The translations under genes were made by a program, and so were the position numbers. The notes below the pieces were generated by a model that was given only the letters and a program-made list of their open reading frames with translations, was not told the DNA's origin and did not search any database. A DNA stretch of 64,000 nt from Eledone cirrhosa (lineage: Eukaryota): positions 186,744,001 through 186,808,000 of the forward strand of contig OZ024740.1 of NCBI GenBank assembly GCA_964016885.1, written 5' to 3'. Each line of letters begins with the position of its first letter. The stretch's first letter is position 1. Below are positions 13,691-50,808 of this stretch, in pieces.

Positions 13691-13694
<4 letters not shown>

Positions 13695-13749
13695 ATAATA
13701 ATAAATTTGAAGACTAAAATCCAAAGAGGGCTCGATAAGGATAAATATA
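13691..13749 (-). mobile_element. PLE family B extreme 3' tip, separated from its body by the Helitron-like insertion
   Basis: Matches 50698-50756 and joins seamlessly to 17287 onward. Confidence 0.85.
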
Positions 13750-14705
13750 CTAGACATGAAAAATGCGCAAGCTCAAAAGTGCCACAGAATGTTATAATAA
13801 ACCTTCAAAAGTGTGGGACTAGAGTTGTTGCTAAAAAATATTGTAATCATTATATATCGTACATTCTGTGGCATCCTTTATAAAAATAGCTTAAACCAAC
13901 GAAGCCTTTATTTTTACGCTATTTCACTTAGTTAATTCTTAGAGTGTAACATATAAAAATATGATTTACAACTATAAAATAAATTAATTAATATAATAAC
14001 AGAGCTGCGGAGCTGAAATTTAGGAAATAATGGAGTATCGGATCCTGAGTTGGAGCCAGTCAATTTTTGGCCGACTCCGCAGCCCTGTATAATACATTTC
14101 ATATTAAAGTTATTAATAAACCTATTTTACACTTCATGCAAATTACCACGAGATATTGATATTAGATATAAGATACAGCGCAATATCTACAGCTGTAAAA
14201 GTACGAAAGCGAAGTAATAATAAGTGGCTTAAGGTAATTCCAATATGAAAGTTTGTAGTGATAAAAATTTGATAATGCAATACGATTGTTAATATTATAG
14301 TTCTATGAAAATGTAACAATAGATAACTAAATTATTTTACTATTAGTATATTTAAGAAATTATCATTATAGATTTGATCGTTCATATAAGCATCATATTA
14401 AGTTTCAACACAATTATTTTGTTACTATGAGTATATGATAATAATATTACGTAATTATTTATAGCTGTTATTACATTAAACATAGATGTATTTATTTTTA
14501 TATGTTACACTCTAAGAATTAACTAAGTGAAATAGCGTAAAAATAAAGGCTTCGTTGGTTTAAGCTATTTTTATAAAGGATGCCACAGAATGTACGATAT
14601 ATAATGATTACAATATTTTTTAGCAACAACTCTAGTCCCACACATTTGAAGGTTTATTATAACATTCTGTGGCACATTTGAGCTTGCGCATTTTTCATGT
14701 CTAGT
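13749..14705. repeat. 213-bp inverted repeat (13749-13961 / 14493-14705)
   Basis: Two mismatches found by eye. Confidence 0.95.
14000..14087. mobile_element. 88-bp hAT-type MITE remnant
   Basis: Termini cagagctgcggag / ctccgcagccctg; 8-bp flanks tataataa / tataatac (TSD with one mismatch). Confidence 0.7.
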
Positions 14706-15295
14706 TTAATATTTTTTTAAGGCAACGCTTGTAATAACTCTAGTTAAACAGGATATATATTAATAATAAATTATCGTTGTAATGTAATTAGATTATGTAA
14801 TTGTTATTATAAATTATCTTATAAATATTAGTGTAAGATGTATAAAAATATTTTCAGACTTTTAATATAAACAACTACAAAAAACAATCAATATTAAATC
14901 AATATATTATACATAATAGAAAACATAAAATATACAATACAAAAACAAAATATTTACATACAATTGCAATTATCAGTGTATATACATTTTCTTTATATTC
15001 CCTGAGCAAATTAATAAGATTTGTTTTTATTGTACATAATTTGATGACTTGTTGGAGTGTATTAAAAGATAGCAACAATTTGTGATTAAATTGTTATCTT
15101 AAGCAACTCACTTTTTAATAGTTGTTGGCTGAGCGAAATTGTAAAAGCCTATGAGCAAATATAAAAAAAAATACACAAACAACATTTCCTTGTGTTATTA
15201 CAACATTAGATAAAATAATTGAGCAATGTCGTTATATTTTGCTCTTATTGCACATTAATAGTGTTTCTATTTTTCGGCACAAATCCATTACGGCA

Positions 15296-15428
15296 GTCCA
15301 TTACTGGTACTTTATTTTATCGAATTAGTAAGTATGAAAGTCGAAGTTAACCTCGGCAGGATTTGAACTTAGAATGCAAAGGACCATAACAATACTGCAA
15401 AGCATGGTGTCTGACGCTCTACCAATAC
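15296..15428 (-). mobile_element. SINE (main family) inside the Helitron-like element
   Basis: Reverse complement of the core and B box. A shorter piece lies at about 16245-16292. Confidence 0.75.
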
Positions 15429-15822
15429 TTGTGTTGAGCTGGTCATTAATTTATGGTGGTCGTGCGTGGAGTAGAGCAATCGGTAGTTGAAATATTATGA
15501 ACAAAACATTTTTATTTGCCGAAGAACATATTTTCAATACTGTTTGTGAATGTGACGAAGGAAATACATTCTGATATGGAACAGTGTACAAAGTGTGTCT
15601 GTGAATAACATAATGTTACCTCATGTTGTTGTCAAGACATAATGAATTTCGTATATCCAGTTAGAAGATGAAACCTAGCCATCTCGGATTAGTTATATTT
15701 CATGCCATGTGTAAACGTGTTTGAGGATAGCAAAATATGCGCGTTAATTATAATAATTAGTTAATAATATTACAAAATATACCTAATTAAACTCTTTGCT
15801 TGAAATTTTATCATTCTTCGTT

Positions 15823-15881
<59 letters not shown>

Positions 15882-16655
15882 TTATCTAGTCCTTCGCTCA
15901 AGATTAATCTATAAGTTTAGATGTTTGCCTTCGTTTAAGTAAATATTACAGTAAGATTTTTAATATAAACAACTACAAAAAACAATTAATATTAAAACGA
16001 AAAAATTATCAATGATAAAAGAAGCGGATGCAACTTTTTTTTTTATAAAGTTATATTCCTGTTTCTTTAAAGAACATTTCATTTTTGTTCTATTGTAGGC
16101 GAAATAATGCAATGGTTTAATAGGGAAGATATAACTTACGAATTATGTCTCTAACCGTGTAACGCTTTTTAAGTAGATAACTACAATTGAAAATACTAAA
16201 GAAATGGAACCAACAATTCAATTTGAAAGTCGTCTAGTGACAGTGTATTACTGGTACTTTATTTTATCGACCCCGTAACGATGAAAGGCAAAAATGCAAA
16301 TGCTTAAAATTTAAATTGCCTTAATTCTATCGTCTGCTGTTTCATTAAAGGGAGATTATCGTCTGTATTTAATTCTATCGTCTACTGTTCCACTAAACAG
16401 ATATACCTCCACTATCGTCTCTATTTATACATTTTAACTTATAACTTATACACATTTGATTTGAAATATTTTATCTAGTCCCCCCCTCTCAATATTATGA
16501 TGATTTCTTTCGAATGAAACAGTTCTAGTCCTGTAGAAGCCATTTATATATATAATTGAACTGAGTTAAAAATTCACAATATTTATAATTAAATAAGCTC
16601 ATATATATATGTGTGTATTTATCTGTTTATTGTATTATATATAATGTGTGTATAT

Positions 16656-16745
16656 ACAGGATGTCCCCCAAAAATATATACACACTTTAACAGCATTCTA
16701 ATAACTATTGCCTGTACAGGTAATCAAAGTGTCAATCGAATGTTA
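16656..16745 (+). mobile_element. Possible Tc1/mariner MITE end
   Basis: ta|caggatgtcccc resembles the TA-CAGGGTGTCCC terminus; partner end not found. Confidence 0.35.
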
Positions 16746-17332
16746 GTTTCGTGTTTTAACAGTACAAATTTACAATACACACATAAAACCAGTGTATATA
16801 CATACATGAGTGTGTATACACATACATGAATGTGTATATACAATATATATGTATATATATATAGACACATATATTCACGGTGCAACGGTACATTAAAATA
16901 TAGATGCGGGAGAGGGGGGGTGTATATATAGGGGCGCTGGGGATAAAGGAGTGTAAAGCGTGTGTAATTGATATATTGAAGGAGAGGAGCGTGCAGCGAT
17001 AGAGTAACAAATATATAGAGAGGGGGAGAGATGGTATTGAAGGGGAGGAGTGCAAACCGAAAGAGTAAGAGATATATATAGAGACGGAACAGATAGAGAG
17101 AAACAGGCGTAAGTAACAGTGGAAGAGATATAGAGAGAGGTACTCTGATTGGTTGAAAATTAGCCAATGACATACGATCACCACCACCACGGCTATCCCC
17201 GAAAAATTTTTATAGAAGCTAGGCATATATGTTAGAACACGAAAAGTGAACATTCTGTTGTTTCACACTTTTCGTGTTCTAACAGATATCAAATATATAA
17301 GAACCGTAGAGCAAATATTTATTAAAATAACA

Positions 17333-17402
17333 GATTAAAGTTTAAGCAAAGAATCGCTGCTTTCACCCTTAACGGGATCTTCTGAAACTAACAAAGTCAA
17401 TA
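17333..17402 (-). ncRNA. Variant hammerhead (family B, CAGAAGA core)
   Basis: Reverse complement of 20231-20300. Confidence 0.65.
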
Positions 17403-17567
17403 TGTAAACGCAGAACTGGATATTTCAAAAAACGTTGCAACCGGAAGAAGACAGGAAGACGATACTTTGGTTCGTGGAAACGTTCGCTATGCAAATAAGT
17501 AAAGGTATAAACAATACATATACTTAGCTCCCACATCAAGACGTAAAATATCCACGTATAGATCGTA

Positions 17568-18506
17568 CTATCCGTTAGGGTATAACGTGGGGCTGTAATA
17601 CAGGAAAGTTTTGTGCAATTTATGTTTACAAGCCGAAATTGCCTCAGATTTTTTGTTTAAGATGTGGTCTGTGGCGTAGTGTATTTCCAGGACCTCAGCG
17701 GCGCAGAGGTCACATGGTCTTTTATTTCCGTTATACGATCTAGCCCTAGCTAGGATCTCCCAGTGTAACTTATATTGGGTGTGGTTGTCTTTTAGACTCC
17801 TGATATAAGCTGAAAGTGACGTCATATTCCTTCTTAGAGGGTAACGAAAAGAATGGGTATGCATGTAAAGACGCTGCTTGAAACTATTGGCGGTTAACCC
17901 TATGTAAGTCCTACGGGACGTGGGTGTTACAACCTTACATTTGTAGACAATGTTACTAGAGAGGCATTTCCCGGATAGGGGGCAATCAGCCCGATTCCTA
18001 CAATTACAGTTAGTACTAACTACAGGGTTGCACGTGTTCCTACGGCTAGGTAGTTTAGCTAAATTTGAAGTTGTGATGTTATGTGCGAGGTTAGGATTCG
18101 TAGAGTAAGAAATATTAATAGTATTTCTATTAAAAATTTTACTATATTTATGTGTAGGGGGAAAATGCTTCGTAATAAGGGAAAGAAAGATCTTAGCTAA
18201 TGGTGTGGCCACTTCCGTATTATATGGTGGGTTATACCAACAAATGCGACGGGGTCTATTACTTCTAGGTCTATTTTCGTACTCTGTATATGCTGTTACC
18301 TTATCGACAAATCCACTTCGAGCAAGAGCTTCGTTGTAATAAGTGGAATGGTCGTTGAAAATACGCTCGTTGGTGGAAAGACGGAAAAGCCTCAGCGAAA
18401 CGTTTCTTACCAGGTTCTTGGTTATGCTGGCAGGATGGTTGGAATGCTTACTTATGTAATTAAGCGTATCATTCGGCTTTCTATACGGGTAATACACCCC
18501 ATTCAA
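17568..18506 (-). CDS. PLE polyprotein C-terminal fragment: RT thumb, Cys-rich linker and GIY-YIG endonuclease (5'-truncated)
   Basis: YRKPND..YISKHSNHP, WYNPPY, KHFP, IFNRNTINISYS, CNCRNRADCPLSGKC, IVY...YIG...FKQR, CDLCAAE, LNKKSE, CKH. Confidence 0.85.
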   Translation of the reverse strand: MNGVYYPYRKPNDTLNYISKHSNHPASITKNLVRNVSLRLFRLSTNERIFNDHSTYYNEALARSGFVDKVTAYTEYENRPRSNRPRRICWYNPPYNTEVATPLAKIFLSLITKHFPPTHKYSKIFNRNTINISYSTNPNLAHNITTSNLAKLPSRRNTCNPVVSTNCNCRNRADCPLSGKCLSSNIVYKCKVVTPTSRRTYIGLTANSFKQRLYMHTHSFRYPLRRNMTSLSAYIRSLKDNHTQYKLHWEILARARSYNGNKRPCDLCAAEVLEIHYATDHILNKKSEAISACKHKLHKTFLYYSPTLYPNG

Positions 18507-18581
18507 AAAATTGAGGGTAACGTCGAGGTAATAAACGACCGAAAGATTGGCCTCAACCTGTATAGAGAGGTTGAAGCCTTT

Positions 18582-20314
18582 TTTCCGAACAATCCAATTT
18601 TCCGAACAACCCCTCTATTCGGCTTATTAACCCTACGAAGTCCGATTTAGGTAGACTTAGTAAAACGATTCTTGATAGAATTATACCTGAAATTAGAAGT
18701 TTGGCCCCTCTTGCACTGTGGAACAATCCTTTCGCGGTGATTGATTGGTTCAACGGCATATGTAACAAGGAGCATTGCCGTTTTATCCAATTCGCATCAA
18801 CAATTATTACTCCTCCATCACTTTACCACTTCTCCTTAGAGCTATCAATTTCGCTAAAACACTGACTGTGGTTAAGGATTTCGAAATTGATGTCATCCTC
18901 AATGCCCGAAAGTCGGTGATTAATTTCGACGACTCTATTTGGATTAAAAAATCCAATAGTACCCCATTAGACGTGAGTATGGGCGGCAGTGATTTTGCGG
19001 AGGTTACTGATCTTATTGGCCTTTCCCTCTTTTCTCTATCAAGGATGAATTCCCCAACTCGGGCGGTGGTTTGTACCGTGACAATGGTCTTTTGACCATG
19101 ACTAAGTGCAGACCTCGTGCTTGCGACAGGTTCAGAAAAGAACGCACAGCCTTCTTTAAAGGCTTCAACCTCTCTATACAGGTTGAGGCCAATCTCTCGG
19201 TCGTTAATTACCTCGACGTTACCCTCAATTTATTGAATGGGTTGTATTACCCGTATAGAAAGCCGAATGATACGCTTAATTACATAAGTAAGCATTCCAA
19301 CCATCCTGCCAGCATAACAGAGAACCTGGTAAGAAACGTTTCGTTGAGGCTTTCCCGTCTTTCCACCAACGAGCGTATTTTCAACGACCATTCCACTTAT
19401 TACAACGAAGCTCTTGCTCGAAGTGGATTTGTCGATCAGGTAGCATATTCAGAGTACGAACATAGACCTAGAAGTAATAGACCCCGTCGCATTTGTTGGT
19501 ATAACCCATCATATAATATGGAGGTGGCCACACCATTAGCTAAGATCTTTCTTTCCATTATTACGAAGCATTTTCCCCCTACACATAAATATAGTAAAAA
19601 TGTTAATAGAAATACTATTAAAATTTTTTACTCTACGACTCCTAACCTTGCCCCCTATCCGGGAAATGCCTCTCTAGTAACATTGTCTACAAATGTAAGG
19701 TTGTAACACCTACGTCCCGTAGGGCCTACATAGGTTTAACCGCCAATAGTTTCAAGCAGCGTCTTTACATGCATACCCATTCTTTTCGTTACCCTCTAAG
19801 AAGGAATATGACGTCACTTTAAGCTTATATCTGGAGTCTAAAAGACAACCACATCCAATATAAGTTACACTGGGAGATCCTAGCTAGGGCTAGATCGTAT
19901 AACGGAAATAAAAGACCATGTGACCTCTGCGCCGCTGAGGTCCTGGAAATACTCTACGCCACAGACCACATCTTAAACAAAAAATCTGAGGCAATTTCGG
20001 CTTGTAAACATAAATTGCACAAAACTTTCCTGTATTACAGCCCCACGTTATACCCTAACGGATAGTACGATCTATACGTGGATATTTTACGTCTTGATGT
20101 GGGAGCTAAGTATATGTTTTGTTTATACCTTTACTTATTTGCATAGCGAACGTTTCCACGAACCATAGTATCGTCTTCCTGTCTTCGTCCGGTTGCAACG
20201 TTTTTTGAAATATCCAGTTCTGCGTTTACAGATTGACTTTGTTAGTTTCAGAAGATCCCGTTAAGGGTGAAAGCAGCGATTCTTTGCTTAAACTTTAATC
20301 TGTTATTTTAATAA

Positions 20315-20318
<4 letters not shown>
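18582..20318 (+). mobile_element. PLE family B, right arm (RT core to 3' UTR), frameshifted, with an approximately 100-bp deletion near 19648
   Basis: NFPNNPSIRLINPTKSDLGRLSKTILD; LDVSMGGSDFAEVTDLIGL; GLYRDNGL (YRDD motif with D>N); VNYLDVTLNL. Ends in (TA)n. Confidence 0.92.
20231..20300 (+). ncRNA. Variant type I hammerhead (family B)
   Basis: gattga-ctttgtt-agttt-CAGAAGA-t-ccc-gttaa-ggg-t-GAAA-gcagcgattctttgc-TT/aaact-ttaatc: bulged stem I, stem II, stem III and a CUU triplet. Core U4 is replaced by A. Confidence 0.7.
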
Positions 20319-20391
<73 letters not shown>

Positions 20392-20774
20392 CTATTAACA
20401 GCTATTAACAGAGAACAATGGACAGAGAAATGAACTACCTTCTCTGAATGAACATGTATATGGAAATTCCTTTTTCTTCCCCTTTTTATTATTATTTTTA
20501 TCACTTTTTGTACAAATATGCAACTTAACAATATTCTGTATATCCGCAATTGACAATGCATATAATGCTGAAACCGGTATTGTAAATAAATTAATGCTTT
20601 GATATTTCACTGAAAGAATCTTTTCAACATTCTCTACTGAAAAAATCTTCTTCCTTTCTACTATTTATTTTTATATATATCAACTCGTGTGTTTCTTTTC
20701 TACATTCGATATATTTATATATAACATATTGAGTGGCTTTTTTAACTGTGGTCACTTCCCAATATACATCAGAA

Positions 20775-20826
<52 letters not shown>

Positions 20827-20898
20827 GTGTAACATCATCATCATCATTATCTATTTTAATGTCATATATATATATATATATTATTATTATTATAGAAA

Positions 20899-21297
20899 GG
20901 GCGGTGGATTGGCAGTATCGGTAGAGGGCCGGACGCCATGCTTTGACGCATAAAGTTACGGTCCTTGCCATTCTGAGTTCAAATCCCGCCGAGGTTAACT
21001 TTGCCTTTCATCCTTACGGGGTCGATAAAATAAAGTACCAGTAATGTACTGGAATAATTGCTGGCCTTGTGCCAAAAGTAGAAACAATTATTATTATAGA
21101 AAGGCGGTGGATTGGCAGTATCGGTAGAGGGTCGGACGCCATGCTTTCCAGCATAGTTACGTCCCTTTACGATCTGAGTTCAAATCCCGCCGAAGTTGAC
21201 TTTGCCTTTCATCCTTACGGGGTCGATAAAATAAAGTACCAGTAATACACTCGGTAATTGCTGGCCTTGTGCCTAACGTAGAAACAATTATTATTAT
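20899..21297 (+). mobile_element. Head-to-tail dimer of the main tRNA-derived SINE
   Basis: Two full units (about 20899-21097 and 21103-21297) with A box 'tggcagtatcggtag' and B box 'gagttcaaatccc'; 'ttattattatagaaa' occurs before, between and after the units. Confidence 0.9.
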
Positions 21298-21654
21298 AGA
21301 AATAATACTACATGACTAGGACTGTTTCATTTATAACTCATCATCATTATGAATGAAAATGTTCTAGTGCTGTAGAAGTTATTTCTATAATACAATACAT
21401 ATGCATATACTCTACTAACATATTGAGTGGCTTTTTTAACTGTGGTCACCTCCCAATATACATCAGAAACACACACACACACATATATATATGTGCGTGA
21501 GTGTATGTAGCAAATGCTTGTTGATTTTAACAAACATATACTCCAGTGCTCAATTGACTACATAATCACTGAATTAAGTAACAAACTTTATATTATGGTG
21601 AGATGTCAGAGTTGTTATAGTGTAGGACAAAATAGCTGATGTTATTTGTTCTAG

Positions 21655-21848
21655 AGGTCGGTGGATTGGCAGTATCAGTAGGGGGTCGGACGCCATGCTT
21701 TGATGCATAGAGTTACGGCCCTTGCCATTCTGAGTTCAAATCCCGCCGAGGTTAACTTTACCTTTCATCCTTACGGGGTCGATAAAATAAAGTACCAGTA
21801 ATGTACTGGGTAATTGCTGGCCTTGTGCCAAAAGTAGAAACAGTTATT
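21655..21848 (+). mobile_element. SINE (main family), full length
   Basis: Closely similar to 20899-21097. Confidence 0.9.
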
Positions 21849-24704: not shown

Positions 24705-24791
<87 letters not shown>

Positions 24792-25006
24792 ATACATATA
24801 CATATATATATATATATGTAATACATATACATATATATATAAATATATAGACCATGCATACAAAAATGATTTAAGGAAAAATATTTCAACCAAGCTTGGA
24901 TTAAGATAAATCAAGTAAAAGTGACGTATGCAAAATATTCTTAATAGATTCAAATGTGCATTGTATTTGTAAAAAGAAAAAAAAGCAACAGTTGTGAGCA
25001 ATCATT

Positions 25007-32316: not shown

Positions 32317-34150
32317 TCATCATCATCATCGTTTTTACATCTGTTTTTCCATGCTCGCATGGGTTGCACACATCCTTAGTACAGTATCTCTCTACTTGTC
32401 TCATTCCTTTGTCATCTCCTCTGCCAGTCTTAGCTACTTGAGGTCAGCTCTTACAACCTCTGCCCTGGACTTTCTTAGTTTTCCCCTACTGCAGCTTCCT
32501 TACACTGGGATTTCCTGGCAATTTTTTATCCATAAATCATTGTCCATGCACATCACATGTCCATACCTACACAGTTTTCTCTCTTGCACACCACCTCAGA
32601 TTCCTCTTAAAATCAGCTTTTCCCACAGCTCGTCCAAACTCTGCCTTCCTCTCACACTTACATTGCACATCCAACGAAGCATGCTTGTTTCATTTCCTTC
32701 CAGTCAATCAAGTAATCTGCAGTTACAGCTAATGAGCCCATGTTTCACTACCATCCAGCATCATACTCCGTACACAGGCATCACACAGCCTTTTTTTTGT
32801 ATGTAGGGAGAAACCATCCTATCCTTATTCTAGCTATGATACTCTCAATGCACCATCCACCACTTCTAATTAAGTTAACTAGAGAGCAGAAGCTATTAAC
32901 CACATCTGTGACTGGAAGAGGTTTATATCATTGGCACTCTTCTTCTCAATTACTCTTGTGCATTTCTACATGCAAACCTCCCTTCCAGTTAGTCTACTTA
33001 TTATCCTACTACATGTTTTGTGTACCCAAGATTTACATTGTGTACATTGAATGGAGTTTATGCCTACTAATTTTCTACATATTGAGCATGGCCACAGCCC
33101 TGGGGGAATCAATCTGGGTCCTATCTTCTTTCCTACTAACTAGCACTTTAGTCCTTGCTAAGTTTACTCTCAGACCTTTGGATTCCAAATTTAGTTTCCA
33201 TAATCAGAATTTATTTTCAAGTTATTTTTTGGTTTCAGCTATAAGGACCAAATCATCTTCATTAAGAAGCTTCCATAGCATGAAGAACAATGATTAACAG
33301 AATTGAAACTTAATGAACTCTTAACTGTACCTTGAATTCCTCACGAAACTTACTTCCTACTTTCATTTTATTGATACCTCCTCTGTGCATAGCTTGCACT
33401 GCTTTCCCAAGCCATTCTTCTACTACTAATTTCCTTAAGAACTACCAGAAAATAGATGAAATTACTCTGTCAAAGGTCTTCTCTCGAATCAACAAAAGCT
33501 AAATAAAGTGGTTCATTTTTGGCTAGGAACTTCTCTTGTAGTTGCCTCACTAAGAAGAGGGCATCTATAGTAATTTCCCCAGACATGAAACCAAACTGCA
33601 TCTCATCTATTTTGATTCTTTCCCTAATTAGCTGCACTATAACTCTTTCTGTCACTTTCATAAATTGGTCCATTAGTTTTATTACTCTATAGTTGCTGCT
33701 TTCTTGAGCATCGCCTTTGCTCTTGTAGCAATTTATGATGGTACTGCTGCACCAGTCATTGGGTATACCTCCATTATGTATTATTTGATTTACTGTATGG
33801 GTTATTAGTTTGACTCCTACCACTCCCGATACTTTTAGCATATCAGCAACTATTTCTGATAGTCCTGCAGCTTTACCACTCTTCATGTTTTGATTGAGTC
33901 TTTGACCCTAAAACTGTCAACTTCAATAGCTGCTCCTTCCTTTGGGTAAGTTGAGAGTAGTTTCTCTTCCTCACACTCATTCTCTGCATTCATCAGTCTC
34001 TCATAGTAACATTTCCAGGTTTTATTTCTAACACATCTTTCCCCAACAACATCTCAATTTACACTAACATACTGCCTTCCAATATGGAACACTTCATGTC
34101 TCTGGTCCTTACATCTCAAGACATTGGCAAATTTACTTTCTTCAACCTCA
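32317..34150 (-). mobile_element. Older decayed RTE copy
   Basis: ORF 33470-33886 (MKSGKAAG...QFGF...LAFVD); (ATC)n tail at 32317. Confidence 0.85.
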
Positions 34151-34330
34151 TCATCAAAGTTTCACATACATTTTTCCATTTGTGCATGGGTTAGATGGGT
34201 CGTCCACCTTATGAGACAAGTCTTGATTGTTGGCCACACTGTACCTTAGTGGGACCATATTTTGACTGAATTTGTATGGCTGCTGGATGCCCTTTCTAAC
34301 ACCAACCACATTTACAGTATATATATATAT

Positions 34331-37042
34331 ATCATCATCATCATCATCATCATCACCGTTTTACGTCTGTTCTTCCACGCTAGCATGGGTTAGACGGGTT
34401 GTTCTGTTGTGGGCAGTGTCCGGTCGGCTGACCTTATCGTGCTCATACAGGAACTGATTCTGGCTTGATTTCTACAGCTGGATGCCCTTCCTAACACCAA
34501 CTTCATTTACAGTAAGCGCTGGGAGCTTTTTTTCTGTGGCACCTCCACGACCACATTGCAGTGGGAGGGTGTGGGGGCATATTGTCTATATGCTTCAGCT
34601 TCAGCTTGTACCCATGAGGGGTCGGGTATTCTGTATTACTGTGTGAAGCCAGAGGTTACGGTAATGTGTCATCACCTTTGAGAGGTGTAATTGGGTACGG
34701 TCGGCTTTTATCACCTCATCCCAGGTCTTCTTGGATCTCCCCACTCCGGTTTCCATTGACTTCTAATGCTCTGCACCTTTTTATGCAGCTGTCATCCTTC
34801 ATACGCCTCACATATCCATACTAACGCAACCGCCTCTCTTGCCCACAGCATTTGATTCCTCTTATGCTCAGTCTCTCTCTCAATTCATTTATGCTTTGCC
34901 ATTCGCGTATATTACTATTACACATCCATCGAAGCATGCAGGCTTTGTTTCTTTCTAATCTACGCAAGTCTTCCACATTCAGTGCCAACGTCTCACTACC
35001 ATGTGACATTGCTGTTCGTATACACACATCATACAGTCTGCCTTTCATTTTGAGGGAAAAGCCTTTTGCAGTTAGCAGTGGCAGTAGCTCCCTGAACTTC
35101 TTCCATCCCGTTCTTACCCTAGTTATTGTACTTTCTGAACACCCACCTCTGCTGCTAATTCGGTCACCTAGGTAGCAGAAGCTGTCTACTGTTTCTACAG
35201 AGCCCTCCCAGAGATTGGTGGTACTTGTTTCCTGTGGCTGTTTGCTGCTTGCTGTCCCATCACAGCTGCTACATGTGAAGCCTACATTCTTAGTTAAGCT
35301 TCCTGAGATCCCGGTTACATCTCTTGTGTACCTATTGTTTGCATTTGGGGCAGAGAAGGGAGTTCCTACCTACACCTTTCCTACATACTGAGCAAGGCCA
35401 TTTCCCTGCCTGAGGGGATCTGGGTTCTGTTTTCTCGTCTACTTACTAGGACCTTAGTCTTTGTCAGGTTGATTTTGAGACCCTTTCTTTCTAGACCCTG
35501 CTTCCAAGTTTGGAATTTCTTCTCTAGTTCTACCATAGATTCAGCTATAAGTGCGAGGTCATCTGCATACAGGAGTTTCCATGGGCATCCGGTCTTAAAC
35601 TCCTCCATTATTGCCTGCAGGACTATGATGAACAGGAGATGGCTAAAAACAGAGCCCTGGTGGACACCGACCTGTATGCTAAATTCCTTGCTATACTCAT
35701 TGCTAATCCTAACTTTGCTGACTGCTCCCCTATACATGGCTTGTACAGCTTTCACAAGCCATTCATCTACTCCTAGCTTTCTAGGAGCCCATCAGATTAT
35801 AGCACAGGGAACTCTGTCAAAGGCTTTCTCGAGATCAACGAATGCCAGGTAGAGTGGCTTACTTTTAGCTATGTACTTTTCCTGTAACTGCCTCACAAGG
35901 AAGAGAGCATCAGTGGTGCCTCTTCCTGGTACAAACCCAAACTGCATCTCATCTAGTTTCACCCGGTCCCTAATCAACTGTGCTATAACTCTTTCTGTTA
36001 CTTTCATGACCTGGTCCATCAGCTTTATACCACTATAGTTTCCTCTATCTAGTGCATCACCTTTAGCTTTGTAGCAGTTGACAATGATGCTACTGCACCA
36101 ATCCTTTGGTATGACACCTTCTAGTATTACCTGGTTAACAATACGTGTGGTTATAGTGTGACCTACAGACCCAGATGCCTTCAGCATCTTGGCAATTATA
36201 CCCGATGGACCGGTTGCCTTCCCCGTCGTCATATCTTTGATTGCCTTAATTACTACACTGCTGCTGACTTGTACTGCCGGCCCCTCTATAGGGTCTAGTT
36301 GGGGTAGGGTCTATTCTTCCCATGCATTCTCCTCCTTTAGTAATCTATCATAATGGTTCTTCCACGCATCTTTCTTCTCAGCACTTGTGAGGGCAAGCTT
36401 ACCTTTATAATTCCGGATACACTTCTCTCCAATGACATCACAATTCTCTCTGACACACTGCCTCGCAATTTTGAACACCTCCTGTTTCTGGTCCTCACGT
36501 TGCAAATCATGGTTGAATTTTCTATCCTCTGCTTCCCTCCTAGCTAAGTATACTTGTCACCTAGCTTCCCTCCTGGTCTCTATGTAATGTACCCTGCTTC
36601 CCCCATTCTTCCATTCTTTTCATGCATGTCTCTTGGCTTTCACTGCCTCATCTACCTTATTGTTCTACCACCAAGTCACTCTCCTCCTGCCTGTGGTCTT
36701 ACTCCAGCCACAGATCTCATCCGTTGCCTCTAGTAAGTTATTTTTTAGGAACTCCCAGTGCTCTTCTACATTGAATGTCTGTATCTGTTCTTCTTTACTG
36801 TCGTAGGCGTTTAGTAAAATATCTTTAAATCTGTTACTGGCTAAGGGGTCTTTCAGCTTCCAGAGCTTTCTTCTCCAGGTTGGTCTCTGTTTCCAGGTTC
36901 GTCTAGTTCTGACTCTGAGGTTGCTGACAACTAAGCTGTTGGGAGGTATATTCCTCACTAGGGAAGGCTTTTGTGTTTAAGACCGTCCATCGGTCACGTC
37001 CTCTGATGAGGATAAAATCTATCTGACTAGAATGCTATAGGT
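34331..37042 (-). mobile_element. 5'-truncated, frameshifted RTE copy with long 3' UTR
   Basis: ORF pieces at 34821-36958 are collinear with the intact RTE (FVDLEKAFDRV, GVHQGS, YADD); (ATC)n tail; TA tracts at both ends. Confidence 0.95.
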
Positions 37043-40566: not shown

Positions 40567-40635
40567 TTTAGCAAAACCAAAAACTATCAATATTATATTG
40601 TGATAATTCTTTCTAACATTGGCACAAGGACAGCA

Positions 40636-40768
40636 CGAGGAGGAGGAGGAGGAGGAGGAGGAGGAGGAGGAGGAGGAGGAGGAGGAGAAGTAGGAGGAGG
40701 AGGAGGAGGGGGGGGGGAGAAGAAGAAGAAGAAGAAGAAGAAGAAGAAGAAGAAGAAGAAGAAGAAGA
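40636..40768. repeat. (GGA)n-(GAA)n purine tract
   Basis: Read directly; follows an inverted SINE tail at about 40600-40635. Confidence 0.95.
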
Positions 40769-43399
40769 ATGAACAGCTACAAAACTCATGAAATATGATT
40801 TGTGGCTGTTTCAACCAGCTACTAAACACATGATCAGTAATTTTATAAAATCTTTATGGTGTTTAAAAGTTCCTCGGCACAGCAATCTATTTGAACCAAA
40901 AATCTGAACTGAAGAAATGAGTGGACTGTAAGTAATTTAAGATGAATACAAATAATGAAGCCAAGATGAATTGCAAAAGATTCCATATTTCTTTTCAGAA
41001 CAAACTTTTTCAATAGAGCACTTCTTATCATATAGTTTCATTGCAAACAATATCAACGTATTTATATATTGCTGCGAGAAAAGAATTAAACTATCAAGAA
41101 ACCCTTAAAATAACTTGTCAACAAAGCCTGGCTCTCTACAATATTTGACAGATCATTGTTGCTATGATTAAAACTTATCTTAAGAGACGTTTATCTATGC
41201 AGGCAATCTTTTTTATAAGCTGGAAAAAAAAGAACATTACAATGAAATCCTTTTTGCTGAAAACAACATTTATTAAGAGTGGAGATACTCCTCTCCTAAT
41301 AAATAAAAAGGACTTCAATATCAATGAACAGGCTCCTATAACATTATCAAAATAGCTTAAAGGAATACAATGAAAAAACAAAATGAAGTAATATTTTAAT
41401 AAATGGTTGAGTGGATTTAATTTTCGTTTACTGTAAAAATAGAGAGTATGTCAGAAATTTGTTGATTGTAAACATAATCATTCAGCTTTATCAATTTCAT
41501 TCTAGATTGTTGTTGTTTTTTTTCAATCTGAATGGGTTATAAATTGAGGGGTTATAGTCTATGGTGGGAAGAAGCAAAAACATCTGTTTTTAGATTATAA
41601 TAATGTTTGATATTAAAAAATGCCTTTGCATATTAAACACAAGACCATATTTGTAAGGTTTAGTTATAAAGAACTACATCGTATAAGAAATTAAATATCA
41701 ATGAGAACATTTAAGAGAAATTAAATGTTATTTAGATTTACTATTTTATTTTCAATGGTTTTTGTTTTTGCATTTCAAAAATACTTAGGATATAAAGAAA
41801 ACAGACTGTTTTTTTAAAAATATCCCTCTTAATATATTCTTTACTAGAATAATCATATTAGATTCAAAAGGAGGATTATGTCCAGTGAGGATGATATACA
41901 ATAGCAATATAAATGAAGTCATTTTCATGGAAGAGTAAACTTGCTAGTTTTTATCTATATACTTCATTCATAAATCATATTAGTGTTTGTGTGGGTGCAT
42001 GTGTGTGAGTGTGTGTGCATGTGAGTGTGTGTGTGCCTGTGTAAAGAAAATGGATCCCAATGAGGGTGCAGAAAGGGGAAGAAGCTATTCAACAATAAAT
42101 AAATGCTTTATCCATATTCTACAACTATGTATATAGGTGGTGGTTGTGGTGGAATGTCAAGATTGATAACAGACTAGATGGACTATGCATAACTGTATAT
42201 AATTGTGTTCCTTTGCATCCTAAGTTAAAATAGCAGAAAGTTGACTTTGGTTTCCAAAACCCTATGGTCCAAATAATTTAGTATAAAACGTGTGTTGGAA
42301 TTTACCTCTATCCCTTCTCTATAAATGTGTCTAGTCTTCTGCCAAAGAAATATATCCATATTTTACTATTATAAAAGAGGCTAGCATATTAATAGAAACA
42401 TTCCAATCCAACCCAGGGTCTTCTCAGTCCCATAGAAGGAACTCCTCCCTTGTTAACTTTCATTGCTTCTGTTTGATTTTGGTCATATCAGGGGTGTAGC
42501 CACACCAAGCTTGGTTCATTACTGTTGGTGAAGCTATTTAACCCATAGCTGTGTTGGATGGCCATTGACTTGGAAAATTTCATCAGAACTTGTTTTTGTG
42601 CTGCTGCTGAGGTTCCACTTACACTGACCACTCAACAATGAAGCAGGTTGTATTAAGTTACATGGTACCTGTAACAGGCAGAACACAGACCTGACAATAG
42701 AAACATTTCAGAGTAAGATTCAAAAGGCTTTCAGTATTTATTTACATCCTCAGTTCTAATACTAGCAGTGTTCATATGATAAGTGCTAATGAGTCAATGA
42801 AGGATCATCTATATGGTGATTTGATCTGGTTCAAATAACTAGCAAATTAACCCCTTTCAAATCACACCCCATTGTCTTACTATGTGAAAGATTCTTCAGG
42901 TTACCCACTAAAAAGACAGTCTTTTATTTTAAGTTTGCTCAATAAGAGCTGAGTGGAGGTGGGTAATATACTACCACTACTACTAATTAAATAAGTTATA
43001 CATATTCCAAACAAATGTTTACCCACATCATATGACCAGTCATGATATCTTGATGTGCTATTTCCTACTGCGGCAATGCAGAAGTTTTGGCTTCTTAATT
43101 TCTCCACCCCTACCTAGTTATGCAGGCCTTTAACAAGTCATGAAGACAACCCTTTCACAACTATATTGAATCTAAAAAATGTTTGGATTTAAAAAAAAAA
43201 AAAAACACTTTAAAAGAATAGATAGAAAAACTTTCAATGGCATTGCCTCAGCATGGACTCAGCCTGTTGATGAGAACACTCAAAAGAGTAAGCATACCTG
43301 AATAAACCCAGTTGTTGTTGTTATTATATAGCACCCAGGCTAGCAAATAGGAAAAATCCATAAGACATCAGGCTAGATATTTTATGGCATTTAATTATG

Positions 43400-43560
43400 A
43401 TCCTTTATGTTTTAAGTTCAAATCTTGCCGAGGTTTGCTTTACCTTTCATCATTATGTGGTTGATAAAATTAAGTTCCAGTCTCACACTAGAGTTGATTT
43501 AATCGACTTTCCCCTCCCCACAAAATTGTTGGCCTTGTGCCTGAATCAGAAACCATTATT
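43400..43560 (+). mobile_element. SINE (main family), decayed
   Basis: B box, core and tail recognisable. Confidence 0.7.
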
Positions 43561-43696
43561 TAGCCCCATAGTCCCAAGTGAACCCAGATTGAGTTAACTT
43601 ATTATCAAAGGAATTCTCTTATATTTCTGTCTTTTTAGGGATATGTATAAACTTCGTTTAATGATCCCTTTCTTACTTCAGACACTAAATTATGCT

Positions 43697-43925
43697 TTAA
43701 CCCTTTAGCATTCAAACCAGCTGTATCCAACCAGAATTCTCTCACCTATTTCTGTTCAAACTGGCTGTAACTGGCCATCCATACCAACGTTAAGTTATTG
43801 TTATCAAAATAAATAATATCAAAATCTCATAGATTCGACATTATGTGAGATAATTATGTGAGGCAAAGCCTCTTACCATAAATATTATAATGTATATAGA
43901 ACAATGTTAATAGCTAAATGATTAA
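43697..43925. mobile_element. piggyBac-type MITE, decayed
   Basis: TTAA|ccctttagc ... gctaaatga|TTAA. Confidence 0.55.
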
Positions 43926-44399
43926 AAGAGATTTCGCTGCTATTTCTTGTAAATCGAAAACTATAAAGAAGCAGCTTATTTGACTCATGAAACCTAGTTC
44001 ATTTTGAAAGTGTCACAATTTAATTAGTTAAGTGATGAACAGTTATTATCATTGGGACAAAGTGATTATACTAAAAAAAATGACTAAAGCCTTAATTTTT
44101 AAATTTCACACAAGGCAAATTTTTGTTTTGACATTTTAATATTCAGCTGTAGTAGAATTAATTTTTACGTTTTTCTTTATAAGCAAAGCTTCTTTGATAT
44201 CTCCATATGTGATAGTGTTGTTTAACCCCCAGAACCACGACAAGATATAGATCTTGGGAGGCCCAGAGTAGTTCATATTTGGTGGGCACCTCATATAACA
44301 TCACCCATATATATATATATATATATATATACATGCACACATAATTAGGAAAAGAGAGAGAAGAAAGGGTTCTCTGTGAATTAACAAGGTCATTAGAAT

Positions 44400-44548
44400 A
44401 TGGGCGGAGGTGGTGAAAGCAGACCTCAGATCGCTGAAACTCACCGAGGGGATGATGAAGGTCCGTGAAAAGTGGAAAGATGCTGCCAGTCCTACCCTTG
44501 CAAGCAGGGAAAAGTGGACGTAAAATGATGATGATGATGATGATGATT
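44400..44548 (+). mobile_element. RTE extreme 3' end
   Basis: Closely similar to 31209-31368. Confidence 0.85.
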
Positions 44549-44559
44549 AGAACATTGGC

Positions 44560-45175
44560 TAGAGTGCTTTGTGGATTTCGCTTTGACTCTGTGCTCTCCG
44601 AGTTCAAATACCTCCAAGGTCAACTTTGCCTTTCATCCTTTTGAGGTTTATAAAAGAGTCTCAATCTTATACTGGGTTTCATTCTTCCACCATGACTCTT
44701 TTGCTCTTCCTCTCTCTCTTTCATTTCCTATTCTTCTCTGGAAGAAATTTGTTTTTATTCACACTTGGAGAGGGAAAAGTCAATTAAATCAGCTGCAATG
44801 TGTTATTGGTACTTTATTTTATTGACACCATATGAATGAAAGGCAAAGCTAACCACAGTGGGATTTGATATCAGAACGCAAAGGGACATAACTATATGCT
44901 GCTAAGCGTATTGTCTGATGATCCACTGATGCTGCCAATCCAACGCCCATTGCATGGCAATAATAATAATCACACATGGGTACAAGACCAGAAATTTAGT
45001 TGGGAGGGGGCATTCATTTAGATTGACCCCAGGGCTTGAATGATACTTAACAATTCTAGAAGGATCAAAGGCAATGCTAAAATAGGTGGGATTTGAAATT
45101 ATGAAATAGAGGGCTGAAAGTAAATACTAAAATGCATTTCGTCAGACATTTTACCAATTCAGCCAATCCACCACT
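44560..45175. mobile_element. Cluster of three decayed SINEs (one plus, two minus)
   Basis: Cores at about 44600-44660(+), 44800-44950(-) and 44970-45175(-). Confidence 0.65.
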
Positions 45176-45423
45176 AGCACCACTACAGCCTCTGCCATGA
45201 TGATAACGATGATGATGAAACAGAGCTGTAAGCTATTTTTCCTAATAAATGGTTTTACTGACTAGAACACATTGTCTAAAGACTCAATACAACGCCAGCT
45301 ATGGACATTACATTCAATATCTAAATTATAGATTTGGTATTGTTATTACATTCATCTAATGTTTAATAAGTTTTATTTATTAAATTAACCTGCAAGGATA
45401 CCACCATTGATATATTGTCTGTA

Positions 45424-45487
<64 letters not shown>

Positions 45488-45923
45488 ATGTGTAAACCAG
45501 TGTTTCTTATATCTATATTTAATTTCCGAGTTCTCACCTACATGCAATCAATATAATACTCTCTATTCATTTTCCTATATACACCAGTAATTTTGTAATC
45601 AGCAATAAGAATGACAGTGTCCTCAACACTTAAAGTAAGAATAGGAATAAAATGCATTGAATTTCTTCGGCCATCGCTTATTATTGTCTGGTCTCAGAGG
45701 ATTAATGGATTTCAGTAATAACCGATTGGTGTGGTTAGCTAAAAGCCTGTCATATTCTACTTTTAAGATATTAACTAGTTTCTACTACTCTTCATCTTTA
45801 GCAAGGATTTAACAAACAGGCTGTGAATAAATCACATAGAAATGGTTAGTTTCTCAGTGAATACTTTGAATAAACTTGAGCTTTACCAATATTAGGGAGC
45901 ACAACTTGTAAATTACAGAGCAA

Positions 45924-46105
45924 AATAATTGTTTCTATTTAGGCACAAGGCCAGCAAATACCCAGTACATTACTGGTACTTTATTTTATCGACCCCGTAA
46001 GGATGAAAGGCAAAGTTAACCTCGGCAGGATTTGAACTCAGATCGTAAAGGGACGTAACTATGCTGAAAAGCATGTCCGACCCTCTACCGATACTGCCAA
46101 TTCAC
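45924..46105 (-). mobile_element. SINE (main family), young copy
   Basis: Close reverse complement of 21103-21297. Confidence 0.9.
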
Positions 46106-46329
46106 AAAATAATGGTTGCCTTTTGTTTACTTTTCTTTCTGGATTCATAGTTATTCAACCACTTACAAACACATAATTCTCACTGAAATACGATAAATAG
46201 ATTGAATATATATATATATATTGTGTGCGTGTGTGCATGTGTGGGAGTATATATATATATATATATATTTGGTGTTGAATGCTGAAAGCGTCCGTATGAG
46301 CACTCAATGCGCTCATAGAGCAGAGTATG

Positions 46330-46723
46330 ATATCACAGAAAAAGAGAGAATCAGTGTTACGACGAATGGAATTTATTGGACATATTACAATCGTCTCTCT
46401 GGCGACCAGCTCGAGACACAATCGATGATCGTACCTGACTCTGAAAATCGCAAGGTCGTCATGTACGTCTTGATTTTACGAAGCAGATTTTCCTAGGTCC
46501 TTTTACATCGATATATTTCACTTGTCGGCGAAGTATATCGATATAAAAGGACATAGGAAAATCTGCTTCGTAGAATCAAGACGTATGTGAGGACCTTGCG
46601 ATTTTCAGAGTCAGGTACGATCATCACATCGATCGTTCCTCGAGCAGGTTGCCAGAGAAACGATTGTAATATGTCCAATAAATTCCATTCATCGCAACAC
46701 TGATTCTCTTTTTTCTGTGATAT
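46330..46723. repeat. About 395-bp fold-back hairpin with a very small loop
   Basis: Arms about 46330-46520 / 46528-46723, roughly 90% complementary by manual comparison. Confidence 0.95.
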
Positions 46724-46727
46724 ATAT

Positions 46728-46976
46728 AGCCACTGTGTCGATGACACAACTGTCCACACTGTAAGGGGGTTGTGTAGGAGACACAGTAAAAAGGCTCCCA
46801 GTCGACACTGTAAATGCGGTTGGTGTTAGGAAGGGCATCCAGCTGTAAAAAACCTGCCCGAGACACATCTGTATGTGCGAGACATGGTCTCCCGACTATT
46901 CCCGCATCAAATACAGCAAAACCGTCTAACCCATGCTAGCGTAGAAGATGGATATTAAACGTGATGATAATGATGA
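46728..46976 (+). mobile_element. RTE 3' UTR fragment
   Basis: 'ggttggtgttaggaagggcatccagctgtaaaa...aacccatgctagc...taaacg(atg)n', shared with 57060-57218. Confidence 0.8.
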
Positions 46977-47008
46977 TATATATATATATATATATAATAT
47001 ATATATAT

Positions 47009-47690
47009 ATATTTATTAAAATAACAGAAGATTAAAGTTTAAGCTAAGAATCGCTGCTTTCACCCTTAACGGGATCTTCTGAAACTAAAAAAGTCAATAT
47101 GTGAACGCAGAAGTAAATATTTCAAAAAACGATGCAACCGAAGGAAGACAGGAAGACGATACTTTGGTTCGTGGAAACGGTCCCTTGCAAAGAACGGGAA
47201 AAAACGAAGATAATACGTCATCATTTGGAACATGAAAACAATTACACGCAAAGACAAAACTACGTTTATGGTATAAATGAAGTCGTAGGCTAATTTTCTA
47301 TTAGGTGGTTCATGGAGACCTCTCTGGCAATGAACGAAAAAAACGAAGATAATACGTCATTATGTGGGGCGATGAGAACAATTATACGCAAATACAAAAC
47401 CACGTAAATGGTATAACAGGAGTCGTAGACTTAATTCTAGTTAGGAAACCGAATGATTCTCGGCTTCAGAGTTAAGAATAAAGTAAATAAATAAAATACA
47501 AAGGTAATTGAAATTAAATATATACATACACGCATCCATATACGTACGTACACAAGCATACGCGAAAATATTCGCCATGGGTATGCAACTACAAGCACGT
47601 ACACGAAAATAAAACCACCCACGCACTTATAGAATCCACGCAACGCCTGTACCCGCACACATACGAACGTATACACAAATACACATAAAC

Positions 47691-47722
<32 letters not shown>

Positions 47723-48836
47723 ATACATAATATATATAAATATACACACATAAATACGTATATAACGCGCGCACACACATACCTACATGTAAATACACAT
47801 ATGTTCGCGGACGTACATCAACCAAAACACAGAGTACACATATACGCACACCCTACATACGTACGAACCCGCATACTCACACAGACGCAAACTCACGTAT
47901 ACACATAACCAAAAGCACATGTACCAGTATATATAAAATATACGCCATAACATATACAAGCAAATATACGTGCCTTCACAAAACATACAGGTAATATATA
48001 CTTACCTATACAAATAAGTAATGGTATAAACATAACAAACACTTAGCTACCACATGAAGACGTAAAATATCCGCGTATAGTTCGTACTATCCGTTAGAGT
48101 ATAATGTGGGGCTGTAATACAGGAAAGTTTTGTGCAATTTATGTTTACAAGCCGAAATTGCCTCAGATTTTTTGTTTAAGATGTGGTCTTTGGCGGAGAG
48201 TATTTCCAAGGCCTCAGCGGCGCAGAAGTCACATGGTCTTTTATTTCCGTTATACGATCTAGCCCTAGCTAGGATCTCCCAGTGTAACTTATATTGGGTG
48301 TGGTTGTCTTTTAGACTACAGATATAAGCTGAAAGTGAGGTCATATTCCTTCTTAAAGCGTTAAGAAAAGAATGGGTATGCATGTAAATAAGTTGCTTGA
48401 ATCTATTGGCGGTTAACCCTAAGTAGGCCCTACAGGACGTGGGTGTTCAACATTACATTTGTAGACAATGTTACTAGAGAGGCATTTCCCGGATAGGGGG
48501 CAGTCAACCCGATTCCTACAATTACAGTTAGTACTAACTACAGGGTTGCACGTGTTCCTACGGCTAGGTAATTTAGCTAAATTTGAAGCTGTGATGTTAT
48601 GTGCAAGGTTAGGAGTCGTAGAATAAGACATTTTAATGGTATTTCTATTAAAAAGTGTTACTATATTTATGTGCTGGAGGGAAATGATTCATAATAAGGG
48701 AGAGAAAGATCTTAGCTAATGGTGTGGCCACCTCCTTATTATATGGTACGTTATACCATATAATGCGTCGGGATCTATTTTTCCTAGGTCTATTCTCGTA
48801 CTCTGGATTTTAGTCTTCAAATTTATTATCATTACT
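47009..48836 (-). mobile_element. PLE family B, third copy (GIY-YIG region, long 3' UTR) with an inverted 3' tip at 48804-48836
   Basis: ORFs 48087-48383 and 48419-48631 match 17568-18506; 48804-48836 is the reverse complement of 13691-13723. Confidence 0.92.
47030..47099 (-). ncRNA. Variant hammerhead (family B, copy 3)
   Basis: Same CAGAAGA...GAAA core and stems as 20231-20300. Confidence 0.65.
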
Positions 48837-48868
48837 ATATATATATATATATATATTTCATCATCATC

Positions 48869-49288
48869 ATGGAGTATGTGCTGCTGTACGGGTCTGAGAC
48901 TTGGACACTGACCAAGAAACTTACTCAGATGGTGGATGGGTGCTACAGGAGAATGCTGAGGATGGCTCTGAATATTAATCAGTATACACTGAGGATGAAG
49001 AACTCAGAGCTGTACGGGAGCCTCCCAAAAGTCAGCTCGAAAGTAGCACAGAGGAGACTGAGGTTAGCTGGACATGCTCACTGACATCCAGAGTTGACAC
49101 TACCCCCAGTGCTCCTGTGGGAGCCCCTGCATGGACACACTGCAAGAGGAAGACCAAGGTTAATGTATGTTGATGCCCTAAGGACAGACACTGGTCTGTT
49201 GGAGACGCAGGACATGACAGCGATAATGAGGGACAGAGACTGCTGGAGAGAACTCGTTTATGGATCTCGGGAATTTTACCCACGCTAG
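48869..49288 (+). mobile_element. 3' fragment of a different RTE-clade family
   Basis: VLLYGSETWTLTKKL...DGCYRRMLRMALNI...RRLRLAGH...LLWEP...RGRPR...DTGL; one internal stop. Confidence 0.85.
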
Positions 49289-50361
49289 ATAGATATATAT
49301 AATATATATATATACATATATATATATATGTTTAGAGAATTGGATTCCCAATCGTGAGGTTGCCAGTGTGATTCCCAGGCTGGGCAATACATTATGTCCT
49401 TAAGCAAGACATTTTATTTCACATTGCTTCTGGAATGAATTGGACAATACTTTTAAAGGCAGTTTTTCTATCGCTTCAAAGCCTTTCTTGTTGCCAAGTC
49501 ATTCTTTATGGCATAAACAGCTGATGTTCATAAAACTGCTCTCATACATATACACACATGCATACACAAATGGGGTTGGCATTAGGAAGGGCATCCAGCT
49601 GTACAAACCAAGCCAGAAACAGTTCTGTATGAGCAAAACACAGTCACCTGATGAAACTTGTCTTACAACGGGATAACTCATCTAACCTACACTAGCATAA
49701 ATAAATGGACATTAAAGAATGATGATGATGATGATGATATATATATATATATTTATGAACCAAATCCACTTTGGACAGCGTGAGCCTATAATAGAATTGC
49801 TCATGTTCCTACTCAGCAGGATTGAACTTGGAGCTAAAACAAACTTCATAACCAGACATCCTTTCCTGTGACAACCACATTTTTCTGTGTACGTGTGTGT
49901 GTGTGGGGGGGGGTATGTTTGTGTGTGTGGGTCTGTGTGTGTGTCTGTATGTGTATGTGTGAGTGTGCATATGTGTGTGTCTTTAAATGCACATGAGTAA
50001 TGAGAAAGATAGATTCCAATACATTGGTACTAAACAAATATGTCGCAGAAATATGTTGCAGAAAATGTCTTATGCACTTCTGTTGGAATTGCCAAGTGAA
50101 CACTGCAGCTCAATTTCCCAGTTCAGCTTTAAATATTATAACTTCACTATTTCGAGTGGGACTGTAAATGAATCAGTGTTTATCCCTGGTATTAATAGCA
50201 AAACTGAAAACTCGTTCTTTCACATACACATGCACACACACACACATGCACACACACACATACACACATGCACACACATACACACACACACACACATACA
50301 TATATGATATTATTCCACAATAGAATATACTTTTGAAGTAAAGACAAGCACTGTATATACT

Positions 50362-50452
<91 letters not shown>

Positions 50453-50637
50453 TACATGAATCAAAGTTCTGTTTAAATCATTTATTTGCTTACAATTGTT
50501 TCTTCCAATTACATTGAGCTATTCATCTTACTGGTAATAAGATAGTAATAAATTACTGTCTTTCACTATTTAGGGTTTAAAATATATATAACTATAAAAG
50601 GGTTTAGTATATACACAACCATAAATAGTATCCTTAA

Positions 50638-50697
<60 letters not shown>

Positions 50698-50701
<4 letters not shown>

Positions 50702-50808
50702 ATAATAATAAATTTGAAGACTAAAATCCAAAGATGGCTCGATAAGGATAAATATATATCAAATATATAAGAACCGTAGAGCAAATAATCTGTTATTTTA
50801 ATAAATAT
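50698..50808. mobile_element. 110-bp PLE family B mini-insertion (3' tip plus inverted adjacent segment)
   Basis: 50698-50787 matches 13691-13749 joined to 17287-17317; 50787-50808 matches 20297-20318 in the opposite element orientation. Confidence 0.85.

What the first reader, a model, noticed from the sequence alone, without database searches (positions are those of the whole stretch)
13691..50808. Fixed two-end rule: three PLE family B insertions each use the same 3' tip on one side and the same internal site on the other
Seen: the element's sense 3' end reads HHR..aatctgttattttaataaatat(site 1)ttgctctacgg..ttattattact(site 2). Insertion 13691-20318 ends at site 2 on the left and site 1 on the right. 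Insertion 47009-48836 ends at site 1 on the left and site 2 on the right. Insertion 50698-50808 ends at site 2 on the left and site 1 on the right. All six ends face outward into (TA)n, while the internal junctions differ. Established: inverted ends are known in Penelope elements and twin priming is known in L1, where the internal priming position varies. Inference: a stereotyped twin-priming mode in which both strands of a cut TA tract prime at two defined AU-rich sites about 90 nt apart.
Basis: partly seen in the sequence, partly recalled or inferred. Interest (0 to 1): 0.75.

Follow-up and report, generated by a model that had tools for sequence, protein, structure and literature searches.

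The report
Penelope insertions primed at twin hairpins
These insertions are copies of an abundant Penelope-like jumping gene whose lopsided ends (one short, one with an extra "tail") are a known signature; the two end types are about equally common across the genome, almost always pair one of each, and each sits just before the same small predicted RNA hairpin, which likely means both cut DNA strands start copying at two marked points of one RNA.

Summary
The element is a Hydra-type Penelope-like retrotransposon. Exact site-1 ends into (TA)n number 13,343 and site-2 ends 12,682; better TA matches inside the 87-nt tail are used 10-138 times. Of 60 ends taken by position, 31 distinct two-armed insertions were all 1+2 and 22 were single-armed or unresolved; one true 1+1 case was found elsewhere. 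Two other families obey the same rule. This is the published PLE "tail at one end" feature, and a lizard PLE is already known to extend both target strands from two internal RNA sites. Corrections: site 2 is not the RNA's 3' tip (the element reads on to the ATG), TA-likeness does not pick the sites, and arms mostly overlap, unlike L1 twin priming. What I did not find in print: strict one-of-each pairing, arm geometry that excludes simple fold-back (20 of 31), and a bulged RCTC/GAGY hairpin 2-6 nt after all six sites in three families. Coupled twin priming on one RNA is inferred. This scan noted twin priming and the twin hairpins before, on other pieces of this genome and on another genome.

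The parts
13691..13749 (-). Insertion 1, site-2 arm: distal tail (+87 to +29), site 2 at 13691 facing (TA)n 13629-13690
13750..17286 (-). Later Helitron-like element (5' TC, 3' CTAG, between A and T, no duplication) inserted in the tail; not part of the PLE event
   Evidence: 7 of 8 long copies elsewhere have the same ends, about 99% identical
17287..18581 (-). Insertion 1, rest of the site-2 arm: proximal tail, read-through of site 1 (17315), hammerhead-like motif, deleted 3' UTR, GIY-YIG endonuclease and RT thumb (open frame 17568-18614)
18591..20318 (+). Insertion 1, site-1 arm: RT fragment, endonuclease with a 100-nt deletion, same 3' UTR deletion, ends at site 1; reaches further 5' than the other arm
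   Evidence: arms 97.2% identical over 1164 positions
20244..20294 (+). Hammerhead-like motif with non-canonical core (A at the U4 position); its first base (-74 from site 1) is where many inner arm ends stop
   Evidence: sequence; no Rfam hammerhead match
47009..48808 (-). Insertion 2, site-1 arm with full 3' UTR and endonuclease
48801..48836 (+). Insertion 2, site-2 arm (+52 to +87 only)
50698..50787 (-). Insertion 3, site-2 arm: the whole 87-nt tail, stopping at site 1
50737..50782 (-). Predicted hairpin 1 (GCTC ... 2-nt bulge GAGC), 2 nt after site 1
50786..50808 (+). Insertion 3, site-1 arm (-22 to 0)
636..735 (+). Family A tail ending at its site 2 into (TA)n; a divergent family (36-42% protein identity to family B in the N-terminal part) with the same rule

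Best explanation
These are insertions of a Hydra-type Penelope-like retrotransposon whose two outer ends are fixed at the end of the pseudo-LTR (site 1) and 87 nt further on (site 2), likely because both strands of a cut (TA)n tract prime reverse transcription, one at each of two RNA start points that a repeated bulged hairpin is predicted to mark. Shown: the two end peaks, their near 1:1 numbers, one-of-each pairing, outward orientation into (TA)n, read-through of both sites in longer copies, the hairpin motif after each site in three families. Inferred: the protein (predicted in print to be a dimer for a related PLE) binds the two hairpins of one RNA, each copy stops at a variable point or at the RNA's likely 5' end (-74), and the two cDNAs are joined head to head with 0-2 nt of overlap. 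Overlapping arms would need the site-2 polymerase to displace the site-1 copy or to use a second, like RNA in the same particle. Because hairpin 2 lies beyond site 2, long arms would need a tandem or circular template.
For: 13,343 site-1 and 12,682 site-2 ends against 138, 38 and 10 at better TA matches. 60 ends taken by position on contig C1: 31 distinct two-armed insertions, all 1+2; independent choice of sites would give half. Coordinates alone, C1 0-47 Mb: 27 of 29 outward pairs mixed. Family A: 23 of 30 site-2 anchors had site 1 at the other end, none site 2, 7 unresolved. Third family, met as bystanders: 18 of 18 called pairs mixed. 20 of 31 insertions, and all three in the window, have a site-1 arm with sequence the site-2 arm lacks. 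Each site also occurs alone as a single arm (12 site-1, 10 site-2 anchors single or unresolved). Arms more alike than the family mean in 18 of 20, and than every other copy in 6 of 20. Strict hairpin motif exactly twice in each of 5 natural copies from 3 families, only after the two sites, shuffle mean about 0.1; the RCTC...GAGY stem after site 2 of the third family was expected before one search showed it. PMC11167929: a PLE protein nicks and extends both strands, starts at two internal RNA sites that match the genomic tail ends, in a stem-loop.
Against: No biochemical or RNA data for this family. The strict motif was defined after seeing the six sites; the loose motif (stem only) is not enriched over shuffles and the tail region folds no better than shuffles (z -0.8; z 0.0). 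20 of 31 arms overlap, which simple twin priming on one RNA does not give without strand displacement. 22 of 60 anchors have no partner end. One true 1+1 insertion (L145). One of the 27 mixed coordinate pairs proved to be two separate insertions when fetched (L286); the others beyond the first 30 anchors were not all fetched. Arm likeness could come from gene conversion or few source copies; 2 of 20 were below the mean. PMC11167929 saw no difference in start site between strands and did not test pairing.
Confidence: 0.7

Rival explanations
1. One cDNA starts at site 2, folds back or switches template (for example onto antisense RNA), and the endonuclease then cuts the intermediate at site 1, leaving the tail on one side only.
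For: Published suggestions: tail from endonuclease-mediated resolution (PMC8557442, passage); self-priming on an antisense template (PMC3846280 Discussion). It gives one-of-each pairing directly. 11 of 31 insertions have nested arms, some with palindromic centres.
Against: Simple fold-back cannot make 20 of 31 insertions or any of the three in the window. Site 1 occurs on single-armed insertions. The same sense-strand hairpin follows both sites. Both sites were start sites in vitro for a lizard PLE. A switch onto a separate antisense template is not excluded.
Confidence: 0.17
2. Two separate RNA-protein particles prime the two strands independently, and some asymmetry of the cut target or of the protein dimer makes them use different sites.
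For: Explains long overlapping arms without strand displacement; arms differ by 0.3-11%.
Against: Fully independent choice predicts half same-type pairs; seen 0 of 31 and 0 of 18. Long arms are closer to each other than to any other copy in 6 of 20 cases. It needs an added coupling, which makes it a variant of the best explanation.
Confidence: 0.1
3. The sites are simply the best base-pairing spots for a (TA)n primer, or ends trimmed after insertion by slippage into TA tracts.
For: Both sites end in a 3-4-nt match to (TA)n.
Against: Longer matches in the tail are used about 100 to 1000 times less; trimming would not give one-of-each pairing.
Confidence: 0.03

Closest known systems
One-sided 'tail' of EN+ Penelope-like elements (PMC8557442 Fig. 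2 legend and text; PMC3846280)
   Same: Inverted 5'-truncated copy, pseudo-LTRs facing outward, an extension present at only one end that runs toward or into the ORF start.
   Different: Tail here is 87 nt (about 88 and 80 in two other families) rather than 30-40; the papers' passages I saw call it optional or often one-sided and give no pair counts; they suggest endonuclease resolution or self-priming.
Poseidon element of Anolis carolinensis in vitro (PMC11167929)
   Same: Two internal RT start sites that equal the genomic tail ends; both target strands nicked and extended; AT-rich target; start not set by homology; stem-loop at the start; predicted dimer.
   Different: Different clade; starts lie in an AC-rich stem-loop inside the ORF, here 44 and 131 nt before the ATG and just 5' of a repeated hairpin; pairing of the sites within one insertion was not reported in the text I read.
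Hydra clade of C-terminal EN+ PLEs (PMC8557442 section 11)
   Same: RW-basic motif, DKT, CxCX5C linker, CxxC and CxH at the endonuclease end, no CCHH, (TA)n target.
   Different: Unit about 3.26 kb (paper: generally under 3 kb); family B's hammerhead core is non-canonical; no tree was built.
L1 twin priming (passages of PMC12016303; the 2001 model seen only as a reference)
   Same: Two cDNAs primed by opposite target strands, joined in inverted orientation.
   Different: L1: about 18-22% of insertions, one primer on poly(A), internal site variable with peaks, overlap median 12 bp. Here: the majority outcome, both sites internal and fixed, overlaps up to kilobases.

Membership tests
EN+ Penelope-like elements | Single ORF with RT and C-terminal GIY-YIG endonuclease | tested here: met
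   Read by eye from natural ORFs (RT motifs, Y-I-G core); Pfam gave no hit for the two window fragments
EN+ Penelope-like elements | Pseudo-LTR from partial tandem, inverted 5'-truncated copy, one-sided tail | tested here: met
   L050, L137, L140 and others
EN+ Penelope-like elements | Hammerhead ribozyme in the pseudo-LTR | tested here: inconclusive
   Family B has hammerhead layout with a non-canonical core, family A a canonical core, none found in the third family's copy; no Rfam match
Hydra clade | RWK-type motif, DKT, CxCX5C linker, CxxC/CxH, no CCHH | tested here: met
   By eye in L137 and L032 ORFs against PMC8557442 section 11; RWR rather than RWK
Hydra clade | Insertion into (TA)n | tested here: met
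Hydra clade | Phylogenetic placement of RT | not tested
L1-type twin priming | Two oppositely oriented cDNAs, one per target strand | tested here: inconclusive
   Geometry fits; priming itself is inferred
L1-type twin priming | Arms abut or overlap by a few bases at a variable internal site; one primer at the RNA 3' end | tested here: not met
   20 of 31 overlap by 8 nt to kilobases; both sites fixed and internal
Helitron (nested element only) | 5' TC, 3' CTAG, insertion between A and T without duplication | tested here: met
   no RepHel protein was sought

The most novel reading that the evidence does not exclude
Coupled twin priming is the default integration route of Hydra-type Penelope elements: a protein dimer loads one subunit on each of two tandem bulged RCTC/GAGY hairpins of a single RNA, and each primes one strand of the cut (TA)n target a few bases upstream. 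The PLE 'tail' is then simply the distance between the two hairpins, and the inverted repeat is the join of the two cDNAs.
Probability: 0.45. Interest if true: 0.7.

Novelty: new variant of a known kind. Interest (0 to 1): 0.47.

Why it matters
How Penelope-like elements make inverted repeats and one-sided tails is named as open in PMC8557442 and PMC11167929. Strict one-of-each pairing and a short repeated RNA motif turn it into a direct test: mutate one hairpin and one class of end should vanish. It also tells annotators how to call the ends of more than ten thousand insertions in this genome. The end rule itself is already described qualitatively.

Tried and rejected
Third end site at +37: an alignment over-extension of site-1 ends into the TA flank; only 10 exact genome-wide cases, most of them paired with site 1 and possibly later deletions. 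Segmental duplication of the three loci: no shared flanks. Long hairpin joining site 1 to site 2: in the minimum-energy fold but not better than shuffles. Microhomology at the ribozyme palindrome as the general joining rule: 33 of 73 junctions overlap by only 0-2 nt (mixed sampling). Pfam and Rfam: no hits. Sequencing runs: no RNA holder listed; no reads were laid. A genome-wide count of end pairs was not obtained, so pairing rests on samples from contig C1 and on fetched loci. The first 30 loci were selected for having a full tail and were left out of the pair counts.

Full report
Observation. The flanks share nothing. Insertion 13691-20318 is a single event interrupted later by a 3,537-bp Helitron-like element at 13750-17286, placed between A and T of the tail without duplication; 7 of 8 other copies fetched at length show the same ends.

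The element. A natural near-full copy (L050) reads: pseudo-LTR, tail, site 2, ATG 44 nt later, RT, C-terminal GIY-YIG endonuclease, long 3' UTR, hammerhead-like motif, site 1. Its protein has the motifs listed for the Hydra clade (read by eye, no tree). So the tail is the start of the next unit, not the RNA's tip: 13,581 exact copies read through site 1 and 430 through site 2.

The rule genome-wide. Exact ends into a TA run: 13,343 at site 1, 12,682 at site 2 (exact matches, so lower bounds). Longer TA matches inside the tail give 138 (+33), 38 (+23) and 10 (+37) under equal or looser patterns. From the first listed places on contig C1 (100 site-1, 90 site-2 ends in 0-47 Mb), 27 of 29 adjacent outward pairs within 7 kb are mixed. 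On fetching, the 2+2 pair resolved into two mixed insertions, the 1+1 pair was real (L145) and one mixed pair was two separate insertions (L286). Curating by hand the first 30 ends of each kind: 18 site-1 and 20 site-2 anchors had a partner of the other kind (31 distinct insertions), none had a partner of the same kind, 22 were single-armed or unresolved. Family A: 23 of 30 site-2 anchors had site 1 opposite, none site 2, 7 unresolved. A third family met as bystanders: 18 of 18 pattern-called pairs mixed.

Geometry. Among the 31, the site-2 arm stops at or before site 1 in 11 and passes it in 20. In 9 of those 20 the site-1 arm reaches further 5' than the site-2 arm. So 20 of 31, and all three window insertions, cannot be one cDNA folding back on itself. 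Where arms overlap by 100 nt or more they are more alike than the family mean in 18 of 20 and closer than any other copy in 6 of 20, which fits a shared template but also gene conversion. Junction overlap is 0-2 nt in 33 of 73. Inner ends pile up near -74, the first base of the ribozyme-like motif (21 of 94 arms within -80 to -61); two junctions carry extra bases including G there.

What marks the sites. After each of six sites in three families, 2-6 nt on, stands RCTC, an inner helix, a 2-nt bulge beginning with U, and GAGY; the first pair is G-C at four sites and A-U at two. The strict motif occurs twice in each of five natural copies, only there, against about 0.1 in shuffles. It was defined after the fact, except that the stem after site 2 of the third family was expected before it was fetched. 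The loose motif and whole-region folding are not significant. The lead came partly from note e1-9518699.

Mechanism. Most likely (0.7) the endonuclease nicks both strands of a (TA)n tract and each 3' end primes reverse transcription at one of the two hairpin-marked sites of one RNA; the cDNAs end variably or at the RNA's 5' end and are joined head to head. Shown are the ends, pairing, geometry and motif; priming, dimer use, strand displacement and template form are inferred. Rivals: template switch plus endonuclease resolution (0.17), two coupled particles (0.10), base-pairing or trimming alone (0.03).

What is known. PMC8557442 (abstract, passages, section 11, two supplement searches) describes a 30-40-bp tail often present at only one end. 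PMC3846280 (passages and Discussion) describes a 31-bp tail on one inverted pseudo-LTR and proposes self-priming. PMC11167929 (main text and start of Methods, parts 1-2 of 4; supplement text search without hits; figures not seen) shows both strands nicked and extended from two internal sites equal to the tail ends. PMC12016303 (passages) gives the L1 comparison. Five searches showed no paper with pair counts, a twin-priming model for PLEs or the repeated hairpin; the library lacks most subscription papers, including the earlier PLE reviews that first described the tail, and supplementary figures of PMC11167929 could bear on this.

Verdict. Real and very sharp, but the rule is the known PLE tail asymmetry. 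The additions are its strictness, the longer tail, the exclusion of simple fold-back and a candidate cis signal. This scan reached similar readings before on other DNA. New variant of a known kind; interest 0.47.

Noticed in passing
window 13750-17286 (-): Young, high-copy 3.5-kb Helitron-like element (copies about 99% identical) with a 216-bp inverted repeat at its 3' end and a hairpin at its 5' end.
   Followed up: partly
L278-L283 (G000 C1:437.2 Mb, C1:91.48 Mb, C2:51.28 Mb): A third Hydra-type family forms head-to-tail arrays of full 3.53-kb units, 99.8-100% alike within an array; in one array alternate units are the more alike (period two). Fits a tandem or circular RNA template or local duplication.
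   Followed up: partly
L084, L104, L134, L285 and others: A roughly 180-bp short element recurs inserted in family B, at about -204 of the pseudo-LTR and at about -1677; another element recurs at about -289 (L117, L140).
   Followed up: no
window 17487/20146 junctions; L046, L071, L079: A family B subfamily lacks most of the 3' UTR (about -183 to -830) and was mobile in that form.
   Followed up: partly
window 20244-20294: Family B's hammerhead has A in place of the conserved U4 in the copies viewed, while family A's core is canonical.
   Followed up: partly
window 736-936; many loci: PLE insertions of several families stack in the same TA tracts, often tip to tip.
   Followed up: no
window 53492-56866 (+): Intact-looking 1124-aa ORF of a non-LTR retrotransposon (AP endonuclease and RT, by eye), with decayed relatives at 33470-36874.
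   Followed up: no
L145 (G000 C1:25.24 Mb): A real exception with site 1 at both ends.
   Followed up: yes
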